A stretch of DNA of 60,421 nt. It comes from Gemmatimonadota bacterium (lineage in GTDB: Bacteria; Gemmatimonadota; Gemmatimonadetes; Gemmatimonadales; GWC2-71-9). Below, piece after piece: positions 19,103-22,730 of the stretch. Where the stretch lies: positions 1 to 60,421 of the forward strand of contig QKDC01000028.1 in NCBI GenBank assembly GCA_003246755.1, read 5' to 3'. Under the pieces are notes generated by a model, which saw nothing but the letters and a program-made list of their open reading frames with translations, searched no databases and was not told the DNA's origin. A program made the translations under genes and the position numbers. Each line of letters opens with the position of its first letter. The stretch's first letter is position 1.

Positions 19103-19135
19103 CCCTATCCCCTTTTCTCAGGAGGCCGGGACCGC

Positions 19136-21181
19136 ATGAAGGTCTATGACACAACGGCGATCCGGAACGTGGCGTTCGTGGGGCACGGATCCTCCGGCAA
19201 GACCACCCTGGTGGATGCCCTCGCGTTCGTTTCCGGATCGAGCCGCAGACATGGCACCATCCAAGATGGCACCACCCTCACCGATCACACTGCCGACGAA
19301 ATTGAGCGCCAACACTCCATTGGCCTCAGTCTGGGCATTGCCGAGTGGGAGGGCGCCAAGATCAACCTGATCGACGTCCCGGGCTACCTGGATTTCATGG
19401 GGGAAGTGGTGACCGGGTTGTACACGGCCGACGCGGCCGTCGTCGTGATCAGCGGCGCCAGCGGCGTCGAGGTCGGCACCGAGAAGACATGGCAGATCTG
19501 CGACGAACGCCACCTGCCCCGTATCATCTTCGTGTCACAAATGGACAAGGAACGCGCTGATTTCGACCGCGTATTCGATGACGTCAAGGAGCATTTGTCG
19601 CCCAAGGTCGTGCCCGTCGAGATCCCCGTCGGGTCAGGAACCGAGTTTCGGGGGATCATCAATCTGCTGACCGGGAAGACCCACCTGTACAAGGCGGGTA
19701 CCAAGTCCGGAGAATATGAAGAAGCAACGATTCCCGACGATCAGAAGGAGACATTTGCCAAGTACGACGAGCAACTCGTCGAGGCCATTGCCGCCACCGA
19801 CGACGACCTACTCGAACGGTACCTCGGCGGCGAAGAACTTCCGCGTGCCGACCTCGTCACCGTGCTCAAGAGGGGGATGGCCCAAGGGGAGATCGTACCC
19901 ATGCTCTGTGGGAGCGCTACACTGACCTACGGCATGCGGGCTCTGCTGACGGACATGGTCGAACTCTTCCCTTCACCGGACGAAGTGGCCCCTCCGGCGG
20001 AAGGCAAACTGGTCGCCCGGGTCTTCAAGACCGTCTCCGAGCCGCACGTGGGCGATGTCTCGCTCTTCCGACTCTACCGAGGCGGTGTCAAGAACGGACA
20101 AGAAATCTTCAACGCCGAACACTCGCTCGTGGAGAAACTCAACCACCTCACGGTGCAGCAGGGCAAGGATCGAATGGAAGTGGCGCGGCTCGCCGAGGGT
20201 GACATCGGTTCCGTCGCAAAACTGAAGGACACACACACCAACGACACCTTTTGTCTGGAAGCCAATCCCGTTCAGCTCGAGCCGATTCCCTTCCCGGAAC
20301 CAGTGGCACTGTCTGCGGTCGTGGTCAAACAGCGTGGTGAGGAAGACAAACTGGCGGCGGGTCTCCACAAGCTCCATGAGGAAGATCCCACCTTCAATTT
20401 CGAGTACAGTTCAGAGCTGGGGCAAACCCTGATCCATGGGATGGGTGAGCGACACTTCGATGTCATTCTCGGTCGCCTGGAGCGCAAGTTCGGAGTGCAT
20501 GCGGAGCTCCTGCGTCCCAAGGTTGCGTATCGGGAAACCATCAAGGGCAAGGGAGAAGGGCAGGGGAAGCACAAGAAACAATCTGGCGGCCGAGGACAGT
20601 ACGGAGACTGCAAGATCAGGCTGTCACCCCTTCCACGTGGGTCCGGGTATGAGTTCGTCGACAAAATCGTGGGCGGCGTGATACCCAACAAGTACATCCC
20701 TGCGGTGGATAAGGGGATCCGCGAGGCTGCGGTCCGAGGGGTCGTCGCGGGGTATCCCCTCGTCGACTTCCGTGCGGAGTGTTACGACGGATCCTATCAT
20801 GACGTCGATTCGAACGAGATGTCGTTCAAGATGGCGGGGATCCTGGCCTTCCGGAACGTTGCCCCAACTTGTCGCCCGGTTCTCCTCGAGCCCCTCTCCG
20901 ATATCGTGGTTTGGACTCCGGAAGACGTGCTCGGTGACGTGATGGGCGATCTCTCGGCGCGACGAGGTCAGATCCTGGGGACTGAACAAGACGGCCGCCT
21001 CCTCAAGGTGCTGGCCATCATCCCCGAGGCCGAATTGTATCGCTACAGTACCACACTGCATTCCATCACCCACGGTCGCGGTACGTACCGTCAGTCCTTC
21101 AGGGGGTATGCGGAAGCCCCGCCGGACGTCGCAGCCAAGGTCGCCGAGGAGAGCGCGAGGGAGAAAGAGGAAAAGAAGTAG
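19136..21181 (+). CDS. fusA2: Elongation factor G paralog (EF-G2 type)
   Basis: Full five-domain EF-G layout (GMGERH, VAYRETI, KQSGGRGQYG, DGSYHDVDS) with divergent G motifs, and not in the str operon. Confidence 0.9.
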   Translation: MKVYDTTAIRNVAFVGHGSSGKTTLVDALAFVSGSSRRHGTIQDGTTLTDHTADEIERQHSIGLSLGIAEWEGAKINLIDVPGYLDFMGEVVTGLYTADAAVVVISGASGVEVGTEKTWQICDERHLPRIIFVSQMDKERADFDRVFDDVKEHLSPKVVPVEIPVGSGTEFRGIINLLTGKTHLYKAGTKSGEYEEATIPDDQKETFAKYDEQLVEAIAATDDDLLERYLGGEELPRADLVTVLKRGMAQGEIVPMLCGSATLTYGMRALLTDMVELFPSPDEVAPPAEGKLVARVFKTVSEPHVGDVSLFRLYRGGVKNGQEIFNAEHSLVEKLNHLTVQQGKDRMEVARLAEGDIGSVAKLKDTHTNDTFCLEANPVQLEPIPFPEPVALSAVVVKQRGEEDKLAAGLHKLHEEDPTFNFEYSSELGQTLIHGMGERHFDVILGRLERKFGVHAELLRPKVAYRETIKGKGEGQGKHKKQSGGRGQYGDCKIRLSPLPRGSGYEFVDKIVGGVIPNKYIPAVDKGIREAAVRGVVAGYPLVDFRAECYDGSYHDVDSNEMSFKMAGILAFRNVAPTCRPVLLEPLSDIVVWTPEDVLGDVMGDLSARRGQILGTEQDGRLLKVLAIIPEAELYRYSTTLHSITHGRGTYRQSFRGYAEAPPDVAAKVAEESAREKEEKK

Positions 21182-21712
21182 GTGGCGTTCATTGGGTATG
21201 TGCCCGACGGGGACATCGACCCCGTGGACAACGTGCCGGACCACGACAACATCATTCGCATCCATGGTGTCCACAGCCGGACGATGCGGCAGCATTACGA
21301 GTTGTATGTCGAGTTGATGCATCGGCCGGGGCCTCTTGGCCGAGAGCAGCGTGAGATGATCGCGGTAATGGTGTCGGGTATCAATGGCTGCCGGTATTGA
21401 CTGCACCATCACGGAGCGGGCCTCCGTCGACTTCTCGAGGCACGAGGCCTTTCTTCGCAGGCTCAGGATCGCCTGATCGACGCCCTGGCGCGTGACCACA
21501 CGCGCGCGACGCTGAATCCTCCCGACCGGGCAATGCTGGATTACGCCCTCAAATTGACGGTCACGCCTGGCACGATGACGGCAACGGATGTCCAACCGCT
21601 GCGTGCGCAGGGCTTCAATGACAGAGCTATTCACGATATCTGTGCCGTGACGGCGTACTACGCCTTCGTCAATCGTATCGCCGATGGGCTCGGCGTTGAG
21701 CTGGAATCCTGA
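21182..21712 (+). CDS. AhpD-like / peroxidase-related selenoprotein (CxxU, Sec73), 176 aa
   Basis: In-frame TGA at 21398-21400 in NGCRY*LHHHG. The frame stays open for 103 more codons and reads as the typical C-terminal half of the family (MLDYALKLT..P...GFNDRAIHD...AYYAFVNRIADGLG). Confidence 0.88.
21409..21430 (+). promoter_or_regulatory. Bacterial SECIS-like hairpin
   Basis: Stem ACGGAG (21411-16)/CTCCGT (21422-27) with loop CGGGC, extended by TC/GA with a bulged C. The core stem begins at the 11th nt after the UGA. Confidence 0.75.
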
Positions 21713-21767
21713 ACCCGGCTCGAGCCTCTACCCAACATGCCGCGCCGGCCACCCGTATGAGCAGGCA

Positions 21768-22730
21768 ATGACCCTTTCTGCGTCCACCGTGGCTGTCGTC
21801 CAGGCCGAGATCCAGCCCGATGTCACGGCAGCGCTCGAGGCGACGGCCGCGGGGGTCCGGCACGCACGAGAGGCCGGAGCCTCACTCGTGGCCTTTCCGG
21901 AAACCTGGATCCCGGGGTACCCAGCCTGGCTCGACCACTGTCGTGATGTGGCGCTTTGGGATCATGAACCGGTCAAGCGCCTCTACCGCGAAATGGCCGA
22001 GCGTGCGGTCGCCGTGCCGGGCCCGGTCTCTCAGAAACTGGCAGAGATTGCGGGGGATTCGCATGTGACCCTCGTGGTGGGGGTGACGGAACGGGTGGAT
22101 GTCGGTCCGGGGCAAGGGACGCTATTCAATGCACTACTGACCTATGGCCCTGGGGGTGAGTTGCTCAATCACCACCGCAAGTTGGTACCGACCTTTTCGG
22201 AGCGGATGGTTTGGGGACCGGGGGACGGCGCCGGACTCCGGACGGTCGACACGGAATGTGGGCGAATCGGAGGCTTGATCTGTTGGGAGCATTGGATGCC
22301 CCTCGCCCGGCAGGCGTTGCACGCAGCCGGTGAGGATATCCATATCGCTGCTTGGCCTTGGGCCCACGATCTCCTGCAGGTAGCGAGTCGGCACTATGCC
22401 TTCGAGGGTCGCTGTTTCGTGTTGGTGTGTGGTGGATTGATGCGAGCCGACGATCTGCCTTCGGATCTCGAACGTCGCCCCGACATGCCGTCGCCCGCAT
22501 CGCCATTTGTCCTTCGGGGGGGCAGCGCCATCATCGGTCCCGACGGCCATTACCTGATCGAACCGGTACTCGACGAACCTCGCGTGCTGGTGGCAACCCT
22601 CGATCTCGGCAGGCGACGAGAAGAACAGATGACCCTCGACGTGACGGGACACTATGCCCGAAGCGACGTCTTCGACTTTTCACTCCGCTCCACCAAGCGA
22701 CCCGACGCGGGGAGTGAATCCACCGTTTGA
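21768..22730 (+). CDS. Nitrilase (carbon-nitrogen hydrolase family)
   Basis: Catalytic triad motifs FPETWIPGYP, HRKLVPT and LICWEH; C-terminal DVTGHYAR. Confidence 0.92.
   Translation: MTLSASTVAVVQAEIQPDVTAALEATAAGVRHAREAGASLVAFPETWIPGYPAWLDHCRDVALWDHEPVKRLYREMAERAVAVPGPVSQKLAEIAGDSHVTLVVGVTERVDVGPGQGTLFNALLTYGPGGELLNHHRKLVPTFSERMVWGPGDGAGLRTVDTECGRIGGLICWEHWMPLARQALHAAGEDIHIAAWPWAHDLLQVASRHYAFEGRCFVLVCGGLMRADDLPSDLERRPDMPSPASPFVLRGGSAIIGPDGHYLIEPVLDEPRVLVATLDLGRRREEQMTLDVTGHYARSDVFDFSLRSTKRPDAGSESTV

What the first reader, a model, noticed from the sequence alone, without database searches (positions are those of the whole stretch)
21182..21712. Hidden selenoprotein: AhpD-like peroxidase with a CxxU motif and SECIS hairpin
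Seen: the 72-aa track ORF stops at TGA 21398-21400 exactly where the second Cys of the AhpD-family N-x-C-x-Y-C-x-x-x-H motif should be (NGCRY*LHHHG). The frame then continues 103 codons to TGA 21710-12 and reads as the rest of a peroxidase-related CMD/AhpD protein. A hairpin ACGGAG-CGGGC-CTCCGT starts at the 11th nt after the UGA, with G at the second loop position. Established: bacterial SECIS elements lie in the coding sequence just 3' of the UGA, and Sec-containing AhpD-like proteins have been predicted before, so the family is not new. Inference: this is a 176-aa selenoenzyme that standard annotation would split or call a pseudogene, and the organism should carry Sec machinery although none is in this window.
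Basis: partly seen in the sequence, partly recalled or inferred. Interest (0 to 1): 0.85.

Follow-up and report, generated by a model that had tools for sequence, protein, structure and literature searches.

The report
AhpD-like selenoprotein gene, known family
This is a real gene for a small redox enzyme that uses the rare amino acid selenocysteine at an in-frame UGA codon, but it belongs to a selenoprotein family that has been catalogued since 2005, so it is a sound annotation fix and not a discovery.

Summary
GTG 21182 opens a frame that meets TGA at 21398-21400 at the second position of a C-x-x-C redox motif. The frame then runs 103 more codons to TGA 21710-12, and the hairpin ACGGAG-CGGGC-CTCCGT lies at 21411-21427.

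The read-through protein scores 124 bits on TIGR01926 (cut-off 81.8). The TGA is conserved: 23 of 24 homologous matches in 60 related genomes carry exactly one in-frame TGA. So do 77 of the 80 closest loci in public genomes of many phyla. The half after the TGA is under purifying selection.

The hairpin arms are the only synonymous sites frozen in the gene, and they covary across 79 sequences.

The genome carries selA, selB and selD, and selD is itself Sec-encoding. TGA is its commonest ordinary stop. tRNA-Sec was not found in this 96%-complete, 190-contig assembly, which also lacks every tRNA-Pro. It is present in 17 of 20 relatives.

The family (AhpD-like, COG2128/TIGR01926, CxxU) is a published, abundant selenoprotein family (PMC1088965, PMC2398784, PMC13188914). 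Interpretation supported; novelty low.

The parts
21182..21712 (+). Complete coding sequence of a 176-residue AhpD-like (TIGR01926 'peroxidase-related enzyme') selenoprotein. It has a GTG start, an in-frame UGA (Sec73) and a terminal TGA.
   Evidence: frame. (TIGR01926 124.3 bits against a cut-off of 81.8). (Pfam CMD 42.5 bits against 23). (homologs begin MAFI.. at the same position). (purifying selection on both halves).
21167..21171 (+). Possible Shine-Dalgarno GAGGA, 10 nt before the GTG start. The upstream EF-G-like gene ends with TAG 21179-21181, directly abutting the start.
   Evidence: Read from the sequence. Inference only, not tested.
21353..21355 (+). Glu58 codon. It sits 12 residues before Cys70, the spacing of the proton-relay Glu in AhpD-like proteins.
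   Evidence: Residue roles come from passages of PMC3141380: Glu36/Cys48/Tyr50/Cys51/His55 in PA0269 and Glu118/Cys130/His132/Cys133/His137 in M. tuberculosis AhpD.
21389..21391 (+). Cys70 codon (TGC), the first redox residue of the C-x-x-U motif.
21398..21400 (+). UGA read as selenocysteine (Sec73), in place of the second Cys of CxxC.
   Evidence: TGA was at the aligned position in all 20 sequences examined from related genomes and in 77 of 80 public loci. Cys is at this position in 10 of 25 full-length database homologs.
21410..21412 (+). His77 codon (CAC), the His four residues after the Sec (proton relay). Its last two bases also start the hairpin arm.
   Evidence: invariant H77; CAC in 11 of 11.
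21411..21427 (+). SECIS-type hairpin inside the coding sequence. Arm 21411-21416, loop 21417-21421 (CGGGC), arm 21422-21427.
   Evidence: fold. (synonymous sites frozen only here). (90.7% of cells paired in 79 sequences, 4 of 6 pairs with compensatory change, 0 of 500 shuffles reach the covariation score). (RNAalifold recovers 4 of the 6 pairs on its own).

Best explanation
Window 21182-21712 (+) is one intact gene for a 176-residue selenoprotein of the AhpD-like 'peroxidase-related enzyme' family (TIGR01926, CMD/AhpD fold).

During translation, UGA 21398-21400 is decoded as selenocysteine. The short hairpin 11-27 nt downstream (21411-21427) acts as the bacterial SECIS. SelB carrying Sec-tRNA(Sec) binds it and delivers Sec to the ribosome. 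SelA and SelD make the Sec-tRNA.

The product carries the redox motif Cys70-x-Tyr72-Sec73, flanked by Glu58 and His77. This is the same five-residue proton-relay arrangement as in characterised AhpD-like proteins, with Sec in place of the second Cys. It most likely cycles between a selenol/thiol form and a selenenylsulfide form. In doing so it would reduce a peroxide directly or, more probably, re-reduce a partner thiol peroxidase, as part of oxidative-stress defence.

Shown here: the frame, the family, conservation of the UGA, constraint on the hairpin, and the presence of selA/selB/selD. Inferred: actual Se incorporation, the enzymatic activity, and the physiological partner.
For: (1) Family. 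TIGR01926 scores 124.3 bits against a cut-off of 81.8. Solved homologs 3c1l, 6k40, 2pfx, 2oyo and 2prr match at E 2e-21 to 1e-18 over residues 23-172, with their CxxC aligned to C70/U73.

(2) The UGA is conserved.
- In 60 related genomes there are 24 matching places, and 23 have exactly one in-frame TGA. The 24th is a C-terminal fragment that does not reach the site.
- All 20 sequences I extracted (18 from relatives, 2 from this genome, 30-64% identity) read C-x-[Y/F]-U.
- Of the 80 best loci in public genomes (Gemmatimonadota, Acidobacteriota, Planctomycetota, Chloroflexota, Calditrichota and others), 77 have TGA and 1 has TGC. My pattern did not locate the site in 2.

(3) Cys homologs exist: 10 of 25 full-length database proteins have C in that column.

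(4) The part after the UGA is functional. dN/dS of the C-terminal half is 0.17-0.46 in the 7 of 8 pairwise comparisons that could be computed, with dS above 1.

(5) The hairpin is constrained.
- There are 37 columns with an invariant, degenerate residue among 11 orthologs (36 besides the Sec column). Only the TGA, His77 CAC, Leu81 CTC and Arg82 CGT keep one codon in 11 of 11. Gly78 is GGA in 9 and GGG in 2, and both pair with U.
- Other Leu, Arg and Gly columns have pairwise codon identity of 0.25-0.44.
- Hairpin columns against the rest give Mann-Whitney p = 0.0013 (4 against 32 columns; kin are not independent).
- CGT is only 15% of Arg codons and GGA only 18% of Gly codons in this genome.
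- Across 79 sequences, 90.7% of cells pair, against 28-54% when the partner is slid. Four of 6 pairs have compensatory changes, and 0 of 500 shuffles reach the covariation score.
- RNAalifold predicts the core of the same helix.
- More distant paralog groups have different hairpins at similar distance.
- The single TGC locus has lost the hairpin codons, pairing 4 of 6.

(6) Machinery. selA is at C27:36571-37893 (523 bits), selB at C183:29460-31271 (308 bits, full length) and selD at C127:17745-18662 (363 bits). selD reads HGAGUACK, so this organism has a second, canonical Sec codon. A second TIGR01926 CxxU paralog lies on C36.

(7) There is no genome-wide recoding. TGA ends 1478 of 2396 long open frames.

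(8) The family is published as a CxxU selenoprotein: passages of PMC1088965, PMC2398784 and PMC13188914, which lists 'AhpD-like protein, TIGR01926, CxxU'.
Against: tRNA-Sec was not found in the window's genome.
- The best Rfam RF01852 hit (54 bits) is a tRNA-Leu(taa) by ARAGORN, and the other hits are tRNA-Ser and similar.
- ARAGORN finds none at default settings. The relaxed candidates that I inspected (the 4 that appear at -ps90) are poor cloverleaves; the 7 further ones at -ps85 I did not look at.
- BLAST with a same-genus tRNA-Sec gives nothing better than E 0.26.
- A covariance model built from 12 relatives' tRNA-Sec gives a best hit of 37 bits on a tRNA-Ser.
- The assembly is 95.8% complete in 190 contigs and also lacks every tRNA-Pro, so this absence is weak evidence.

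The hairpin is small (6 bp, -8.2 kcal/mol) and no more stable than shuffled sequence. In the 53-nt fold of this sequence a competing structure wins.

In the smaller set of 20 relatives, which mixes paralog groups, the fixed-register helix pairs in 78.1% of cells and its covariation score is not above the shuffles (116 of 500 reach it).

The hairpin overlaps the conserved peptide H-G-A-G-L-R, so part of its nucleotide conservation is due to the protein.

There is no direct evidence of Se incorporation, expression or activity.
Confidence: 0.93

Rival explanations
1. Pseudogene: a Cys codon (TGC/TGT) mutated to TGA, leaving a truncated 72-residue product and a decaying downstream remnant.
For: Under table 11 the ORF stops at codon 73. 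Public gene callers commonly report only the ~103-residue C-terminal piece; by my count this applies to 75 of the best 120 database hits.
Against: The same TGA sits at the same column in 23 of 24 matches in relatives and in 77 of 80 public loci from many phyla. The downstream half has dN/dS 0.17-0.46 with saturated dS. The frame stays open for 103 codons.
Confidence: 0.02
2. The gene is a genuine Sec gene by descent, but it is not decoded in this particular organism because tRNA-Sec has been lost. The product is then truncated or made by low-level near-cognate read-through.
For: No tRNA-Sec was found in the assembly by five approaches.
Against: selA, selB and selD are intact, with no internal stops other than the Sec codon of selD. 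selD itself and a second AhpD-like paralog also need Sec decoding. The assembly is fragmentary and lacks all tRNA-Pro. The DNA that flanks tRNA-Sec in three same-genus genomes has no ortholog-level match in this assembly; the best is 43-50% over about 85 residues. That suggests the whole region is missing. tRNA-Sec is present in 17 of 20 relatives.
Confidence: 0.03
3. UGA is read as an ordinary amino acid (Trp, Gly or Cys) through a changed genetic code or a suppressor tRNA, not as Sec.
For: Nine of 25 full-length database homologs show W at this column. This shows that some pipelines translated such genes with TGA=W.
Against: TGA is the commonest terminator of long open frames in this genome, at 1478 of 2396, and it also ends this gene. 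No tRNA with anticodon tca passes ARAGORN's default threshold. The dedicated Sec machinery is present. A structure immediately 3' of the UGA is under selection, which reassignment would not need.
Confidence: 0.015
4. Assembly or sequencing error: the true codon is TGC or TGT.
For: None found. The window is from a metagenome-type assembly, and only contigs, not raw reads, could be laid.
Against: A 4984-nt contig of run X2 covers 21396-21800 with no differences, including the TGA. That run may be the source sample, so it is not independent. Close orthologs in other genomes have the same TGA.
Confidence: 0.005

Closest known systems
AhpD-like selenoprotein family. It appears as 'AhpD-like protein', COG2128, CxxU in the Sargasso Sea selenoproteome (PMC1088965), as 'AhpD-like 1' in the GOS selenoproteome (PMC2398784), and as 'AhpD-like protein, TIGR01926, CxxU' in a 2026 review (PMC13188914).
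   Same: Same NCBIfam model above cut-off. Same CxxU motif with Sec as the second redox residue. A SECIS hairpin lies just 3' of the UGA, and Cys homologs are widespread. In GOS the family had 299 Sec sequences and 902 Cys homologs, fourth in the list of families (passage read).
   Different: Nothing of substance. This is one more member, in a genome whose nearest named homologs come from Gemmatimonadota and other MAGs. I saw passages and tables of these papers only. Their supplements were closed, so I cannot say whether this exact clade is listed there.
DR1765 of Deinococcus radiodurans (PDB 6k40), with the structural-genomics 'peroxidase-related' proteins 3c1l, 2pfx, 2oyo and 2prr.
   Same: Same subfamily by sequence (E 4e-21 for 6k40, residues 23-171). 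The E..C-x-x-C..H motif aligns. According to a review passage (PMC8945050), a DR1765 mutant is more sensitive to H2O2, and complementation depends on the two Cys of CxxC.
   Different: These proteins have Cys at both positions, while the window's protein has Sec at the second. The original DR1765 paper was not read; I saw only the review's account.
Mycobacterium tuberculosis AhpD (TIGR00777; PDB 1GU9/1KNC) and Pseudomonas aeruginosa PA0269 (2o4d).
   Same: The proton-relay pattern is the same. It reads Glu, 12 residues, Cys-x-(His/Tyr)-Cys, 3 residues, His (PMC3141380 passages). Here it is Glu58, Cys70, Tyr72, Sec73, His77. This is a mechanistic analogy for thiol-based peroxide or disulfide reduction.
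   Different: The window's protein is not an ortholog. TIGR00777 scores 19.4 bits against a cut-off of 191.95, and 2o4d matches at E 0.0027 only. No AhpC partner or lipoamide system is linked in the neighbourhood.
Bacterial SECIS elements, such as that of E. coli fdhF
   Same: A stem-loop within the coding sequence immediately 3' of the UGA, with G in the first two loop positions. The loop starts 16 nt after the UGA. This fits the consensus for bacterial SECIS prediction as I recall it (loop 16-37 nt from the UGA).
   Different: The conserved helix is much shorter (6 bp, 5-nt loop) than the roughly 40-nt fdhF element. SelB binding was not tested.

Membership tests
AhpD-like selenoprotein (TIGR01926 peroxidase-related enzyme, CxxU) | Read-through protein matches the family model above its curated cut-off | tested here: met
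   TIGR01926 124.3 bits against 81.8, residues 23-172 on profile 31-173 of 178.
AhpD-like selenoprotein (TIGR01926 peroxidase-related enzyme, CxxU) | In-frame UGA at the second position of the CxxC redox motif, aligned with Cys in homologs | tested here: met
   C is in that column in 10 of 25 full-length database homologs and in the solved structures.
AhpD-like selenoprotein (TIGR01926 peroxidase-related enzyme, CxxU) | UGA conserved among orthologs, with the downstream reading frame kept under purifying selection | tested here: met
   23 of 24 matches in relatives, 20 of 20 extracted, 77 of 80 public loci, dN/dS 0.17-0.46 downstream.
AhpD-like selenoprotein (TIGR01926 peroxidase-related enzyme, CxxU) | Proton-relay residues Glu / Cys / Tyr-or-His / Cys(Sec) / His at the family spacing | tested here: met
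   E58, C70, Y72, U73 and H77, compared with the residue lists in PMC3141380. This is by sequence only; no structure was modelled.
Bacterial Sec-decoding system | SECIS stem-loop just 3' of the UGA, supported by conservation or covariation | tested here: met
   Stability alone is not significant. The smaller mixed set of 20 gave no significant covariation.
Bacterial Sec-decoding system | selA, selB and selD present in the genome | tested here: met
   523, 308 and 363 bits, each above its cut-off. selD has Sec at HGAGUACK.
Bacterial Sec-decoding system | selC (tRNA-Sec, anticodon UCA) present in the genome | tested here: inconclusive
   Not found in the assembly. The assembly is 95.8% complete in 190 contigs and has no tRNA-Pro. 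17 of 20 relatives have it, confirmed by ARAGORN in the 12 of 12 loci checked.
Bacterial Sec-decoding system | Selenium actually incorporated at the UGA | not testable with these tools
   Needs 75Se labelling or peptide mass spectrometry.
M. tuberculosis-type AhpD (TIGR00777) | Match to the AhpD subfamily model above its cut-off | tested here: not met
   19.4 bits against 191.95. The gene shares the core motif and probably the chemistry, but it is not an AhpD ortholog.
Carboxymuconolactone decarboxylase superfamily (Pfam PF02627) | CMD domain match above the gathering score | tested here: met
   42.5 bits against 23, residues 45-83.
AhpD-like selenoprotein (TIGR01926 peroxidase-related enzyme, CxxU) | Peroxidase or disulfide-reductase activity dependent on the CxxU pair | not testable with these tools
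   Inferred from Cys homologs: PA0269 has weak H2O2 reduction that NEM blocks, and the DR1765 mutant phenotype is described in a review passage.

The most novel reading that the evidence does not exclude
The 176-180-residue clade to which this gene belongs may depend on Sec almost obligately, since 77 of the 80 nearest public loci carry TGA. It has spread across at least eight phyla together with one nearly invariant minimal SECIS (CAC GGR GCG GGN CUC CGU). This would be a dual-coding module in which the RNA element, and not protein function, fixes the peptide H-G-A-G-L-R. In support, Cys-form homologs vary more in this peptide (HVAGLR, HGVWLR, HGANLR, HSASLR). If so, the clade is a natural test bed for how small a bacterial SECIS can be, and a portable Sec-insertion tag.
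Probability: 0.3. Interest if true: 0.35.

Novelty: already known. Interest (0 to 1): 0.2.

Why it matters
It matters mainly for annotation. Standard gene callers split or truncate this gene. Many public entries are about 103-residue C-terminal stubs or show W at the Sec column. The same genome needs Sec-aware calling for selD and for a second AhpD-like paralog.

It also adds a data point that this lineage uses selenium for redox defence. Its nearest named homologs come from Gemmatimonadota and other environmental MAGs.

It does not open a new question. The family, its CxxU motif and its SECIS have been in the literature since 2005, and the enzyme's physiological partner remains unknown for the whole family.

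Tried and rejected
tRNA-Sec hunt in the window's genome. All of these gave nothing convincing: Rfam RF01852, ARAGORN on the hits, ARAGORN genome-wide at default and relaxed thresholds, Rfam E-value scan around selA, selB and selD, BLAST with a same-genus tRNA-Sec, two short conserved motifs and my own covariance model R1.

Synteny route. The DNA flanking tRNA-Sec in same-genus genomes has no nucleotide match in this genome. There is only a 43-50% identical RidA-like paralog on C22. That region (L062) holds no tRNA-like RNA.

Thermodynamic tests of the hairpin are not significant.

Covariation on the 20 relatives' sequences with one fixed register is not significant. That set mixes paralog groups whose hairpins lie in other registers.

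Conserved gene neighbourhood as a clue to a partner. The order EF-G-like / AhpD-like / CN-hydrolase recurs only in the closest relatives: 4 of 99 loci for the EF-G-like gene, and 5 at ortholog level for the hydrolase. I draw no functional link from it.

Sequencing runs. No RNA holder is listed. Laying the contigs of 4 runs showed no differing letters, but only X2 covers the TGA with an identical contig and it may be the source sample. X4, from another study, has identical contigs on both sides (21161-21392 and 21444-21695) but not across the TGA. Contigs break at 21395-21433.

Not attempted: structure prediction, complex prediction and the protein atlas. The sequence matches to solved structures were already decisive for the fold.

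Supplementary files of papers were closed and not requested. BSepDB (PMC13326102) was seen only in a search listing and may already list this clade.
Full report
**Observation**

- A GTG at 21182 directly follows the TAG stop of an upstream EF-G-like gene and opens a frame that reads ...SGINGCRY.
- The frame meets TGA at 21398-21400 and continues LHHHGAGLRR... for 103 further codons to TGA 21710-12. Read through, this gives 176 residues.
- The hairpin ACGGAG / CGGGC / CTCCGT occupies 21411-21427. It begins at the 11th nucleotide after the UGA and has G at the second loop position.

**What the protein is**

- The read-through product matches NCBIfam TIGR01926 'peroxidase-related enzyme' at 124.3 bits (cut-off 81.8). 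It matches the AhpD core-domain model TIGR00778 at 42.9 bits (cut-off 27.8).
- It matches Pfam CMD at 42.5 bits (cut-off 23).
- It does not reach the M. tuberculosis-type AhpD model TIGR00777 (19.4 bits against 191.95).
- Five solved 'peroxidase-related' proteins (3c1l, 6k40, 2pfx, 2oyo, 2prr) match at E 2e-21 to 1e-18 over residues 23-172. Their C-x-x-C aligns with Cys70 and the UGA codon.
- The five proton-relay residues are all present at the same spacing: Glu58, Cys70, Tyr72, Sec73, His77. They are described for PA0269 as Glu36, Cys48, Tyr50, Cys51, His55, and for M. tuberculosis AhpD as Glu118, Cys130, His132, Cys133, His137 (passages of PMC3141380).

**Is the UGA a Sec codon or a lesion?**

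- A six-frame search of 60 related genomes found 24 matching places outside this genome. 23 of them contain exactly one in-frame TGA. The remaining one is a C-terminal fragment covering residues 109-176 only.
- I extracted the 18 relatives' sequences for which loci were returned, plus the two copies in this genome. All 20 read C-x-[Y/F]-U at the aligned column, at 30-64% identity to the query. Five rows without loci and the fragment were not examined.
- One of the 18 (G021, locus L027) comes from a genome flagged as unpublished. No count depends on it.
- A scan of one genome per species across bacteria returned 80 best loci from MAGs. These were labelled Gemmatimonadota, Acidobacteriota/Thermoanaerobaculia, Planctomycetota, Chloroflexota, Calditrichota, Marinimicrobia, Fidelibacterota, Desulfosarcina and others. 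77 have TGA at the site and one has TGC (L117). My pattern failed to locate the site in two, L079 and L134.
- Cys-containing homologs exist. In an alignment of 25 full-length database proteins the column reads C in 10, W in 9, and S, R and L in 2 each.
- By my count, 75 of the best 120 database hits are 100-122-residue proteins covering only the part after the UGA. These are split gene calls.
- Pairwise dN/dS between this gene and eight orthologs is 0.13-0.38 for the N-terminal half and 0.17-0.46 for the C-terminal half. dS is above 1 wherever it could be computed; two half-comparisons were saturated.
- The region after the UGA is therefore translated and under selection.

**The hairpin**

Thermodynamics say nothing. 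The hairpin folds at -8.2 kcal/mol with z = +0.14 in a 35-nt context. In a 53-nt context a competing fold is the MFE, with z = -1.07. The comparative evidence is strong.

- Among 11 orthologs whose synonymous sites are otherwise saturated, I listed the 37 columns with an invariant, degenerate residue.
  - The only columns with a single codon in all 11 are the TGA, His77 (CAC), Leu81 (CTC) and Arg82 (CGT).
  - Gly78 is GGA (9) or GGG (2), both able to pair with the U of CUC.
  - All four of these residues lie in the hairpin arms. Other Leu, Arg and Gly columns have pairwise codon identities of 0.25-0.44.
  - Hairpin columns against the other 32 give Mann-Whitney p = 0.0013, with the caveat that kin are not independent.
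  - In this genome's long open frames CGT is 15% of Arg codons and GGA is 18% of Gly codons.
- In an alignment of 79 sequences (this gene plus 78 public loci, including the TGC one):
  - the six proposed pairs form in 90.7% of cells, against 28-54% when the 3' partner is slid by 1-3 columns;
  - four of six pairs show changes on both sides (GC to AU, CG or UA), and 0 of 500 shuffles reach the observed covariation score;
  - 56 of the 77 TGA sequences form all six pairs and 10 form five.
- RNAalifold, run blind on the same alignment, returns the central four pairs.
- Results that do not support the hairpin:
  - In the smaller 20-sequence set from relatives, the same fixed-register helix pairs in 78.1% of cells and its covariation is not above the shuffles (116 of 500 reach it).
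  - That set mixes three paralog groups. Two of them carry different hairpins, CGCCGC/GCGGCG shifted by one position and GACCTC-CGTGCC-GAGGTC eight positions further on.
- I read the presence of some hairpin at a similar distance in each group as further support, but this is qualitative.
- The one Cys-form locus (L117) encodes H-V-A-G-L-R with CTG CGG and pairs in only 4 of 6 positions. This fits loss of the constraint once the UGA is gone (n = 1).

**Sec machinery**

- The window's genome (3.15 Mb, 190 contigs, 95.8% complete) encodes three of the four components, each above its curated cut-off and outside the window:
  - selA at C27:36571-37893 (522.9 bits);
  - a full-length selB at C183:29460-31271 (308.2 bits, profile 1-573 of 581);
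  - selD at C127:17745-18662 (362.8 bits).
- selD itself contains one in-frame TGA in the sequence HGAGUACKLG. I recall this motif as the catalytic Cys/Sec site of SelD.
- A second TIGR01926 paralog with N-D-C-L-F-U lies at C36:2255-2650.
- TGA terminates 1478 of 2396 long open frames, so the code is standard.
- tRNA-Sec was not found.
  - The 54-bit RF01852 hit is a tRNA-Leu(taa). All lower hits checked are ordinary tRNAs.
  - ARAGORN reports 42 tRNAs, none SeC and none for proline. The four relaxed-threshold SeC candidates that I inspected (those at -ps90) are poor; the further ones at -ps85 I did not inspect.
  - A same-genus tRNA-Sec finds nothing by BLAST.
  - A covariance model built from 12 relatives' tRNA-Sec scores at best 37 bits, on a tRNA-Ser.
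- 17 of 20 relatives have a tRNA-Sec at 67-78 bits. ARAGORN confirmed it as SeC(tca) in 12 of 12 loci.
- The DNA flanking tRNA-Sec in three same-genus genomes has no ortholog-level counterpart in this assembly. I therefore infer that the region is simply missing from the bin, but this is not shown.

**Mechanism**

Shown: one open frame interrupted only by a conserved UGA, a selected RNA hairpin 11-27 nt downstream, and SelA/SelB/SelD in the genome.

Inferred from the established bacterial pathway:
- SelD makes selenophosphate, and SelA converts Ser-tRNA(Sec) to Sec-tRNA(Sec).
- SelB binds the hairpin and delivers Sec at the UGA.

The product should work like its Cys homologs, with a Cys70/Sec73 redox pair assisted by Glu58, Tyr72 and His77.
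- PA0269 shows weak H2O2 reduction that is sensitive to thiol alkylation (PMC3141380 passages).
- Loss of DR1765 sensitises D. radiodurans to H2O2, with dependence on the CxxC cysteines. This comes from a review passage in PMC8945050; the primary paper was not read.
- Whether the window's enzyme reduces peroxides directly or re-reduces a peroxiredoxin is open.
- The neighbours are a fatty-acid desaturase, an EF-G paralog, a carbon-nitrogen hydrolase and an S9 peptidase. They give no clue, and the gene order is kept only in the closest relatives.

**Comparison with what is known**

- The Sargasso Sea selenoproteome paper lists 'AhpD-like protein' (COG2128, CXXU, 27 sequences) as a new selenoprotein family and figures its SECIS (passages).
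- The GOS analysis lists 'AhpD-like 1' (COG2128, CxxU) with 299 selenoproteins and 902 Cys homologs (passage).
- A 2026 review lists 'AhpD-like protein, TIGR01926, CxxU' (passage).
- The gene here meets every sequence-level criterion of that family. It is a member, not a variant.
- The search terms were 'AhpD-like', 'selenoprotein' and 'selenocysteine', and 'AhpD', 'CxxC', 'crystal structure' and 'peroxidase-related'.
- 'Gemmatimonad' does not occur in the main text of the 2026 review. I did not search further for Sec use in that phylum, so I make no claim about it.

**Verdict**

The missing tRNA-Sec in an incomplete assembly is the only open point. Novelty: already known. Interest 0.2. This is a correct and useful annotation, but an ordinary member of an abundant, published selenoprotein family.

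Noticed in passing
G000:C127:17745-18662 (locus L018:1501-2418): selD of the same genome is itself a selenoprotein gene, with one in-frame TGA in HGAGUACKLG. A standard gene call would truncate it.
   Followed up: partly
G000:C36:2255-2650 (locus L041:1501-1896): A second TIGR01926 paralog (101 bits, 30% identical to the window's protein) with the motif N-D-C-L-F-U. Its own hairpin is CGCCGC-GGTC-GCGGCG, one position out of register with the window's.
   Followed up: partly
Alignment A1, column of residue 73: In 25 full-length database homologs the Sec column reads C (10), W (9), S (2), R (2) and L (2). W, S, R and L codons are all one base from TGA. W probably reflects gene calling under a TGA=W table on short contigs. 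S, R and L are unexplained and were not checked at DNA level.
   Followed up: no
L117:1717-1764 and Cys-form proteins P0010-P0015, P0017, P0027, P0029, P0063: Cys-form homologs vary more in the peptide after the redox motif (HVAGLR, HGVWLR, HGGNLR, HGANLR, HSASLR) than Sec forms, which keep HGAGLR. This suggests that the SECIS constrains the protein sequence in Sec forms.
   Followed up: partly
window 21395-21433: Logan contigs of four metagenome runs break at this stretch, and short pieces from other organisms align only here (2-3 differences). The SECIS-coding segment is shared almost letter for letter between different organisms in the same samples, which fragments assemblies at this gene.
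   Followed up: no
window 19130-21181 (+): An EF-G paralog with all five EF-G domains lies upstream. The listed ORF starts further upstream, at GTG 18962, and overlaps the end of the desaturase gene. Its TAG stop abuts the GTG start of the selenoprotein gene. The pairing recurs in only 4 of 99 homologous loci examined, so it is probably incidental.
   Followed up: partly
window 21684-22730 (+): The longest ORF of the downstream carbon-nitrogen hydrolase would overlap the last 29 nt of the selenoprotein gene. Similarity to its orthologs in relatives begins at residue 8 counted from the ATG at 21768, so that ATG is the more likely start.
   Followed up: no
G000 whole assembly: ARAGORN finds 42 tRNA genes but none for proline and no tRNA-Sec. 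The tRNA complement of this bin is therefore incomplete despite 95.8% marker completeness.
   Followed up: yes
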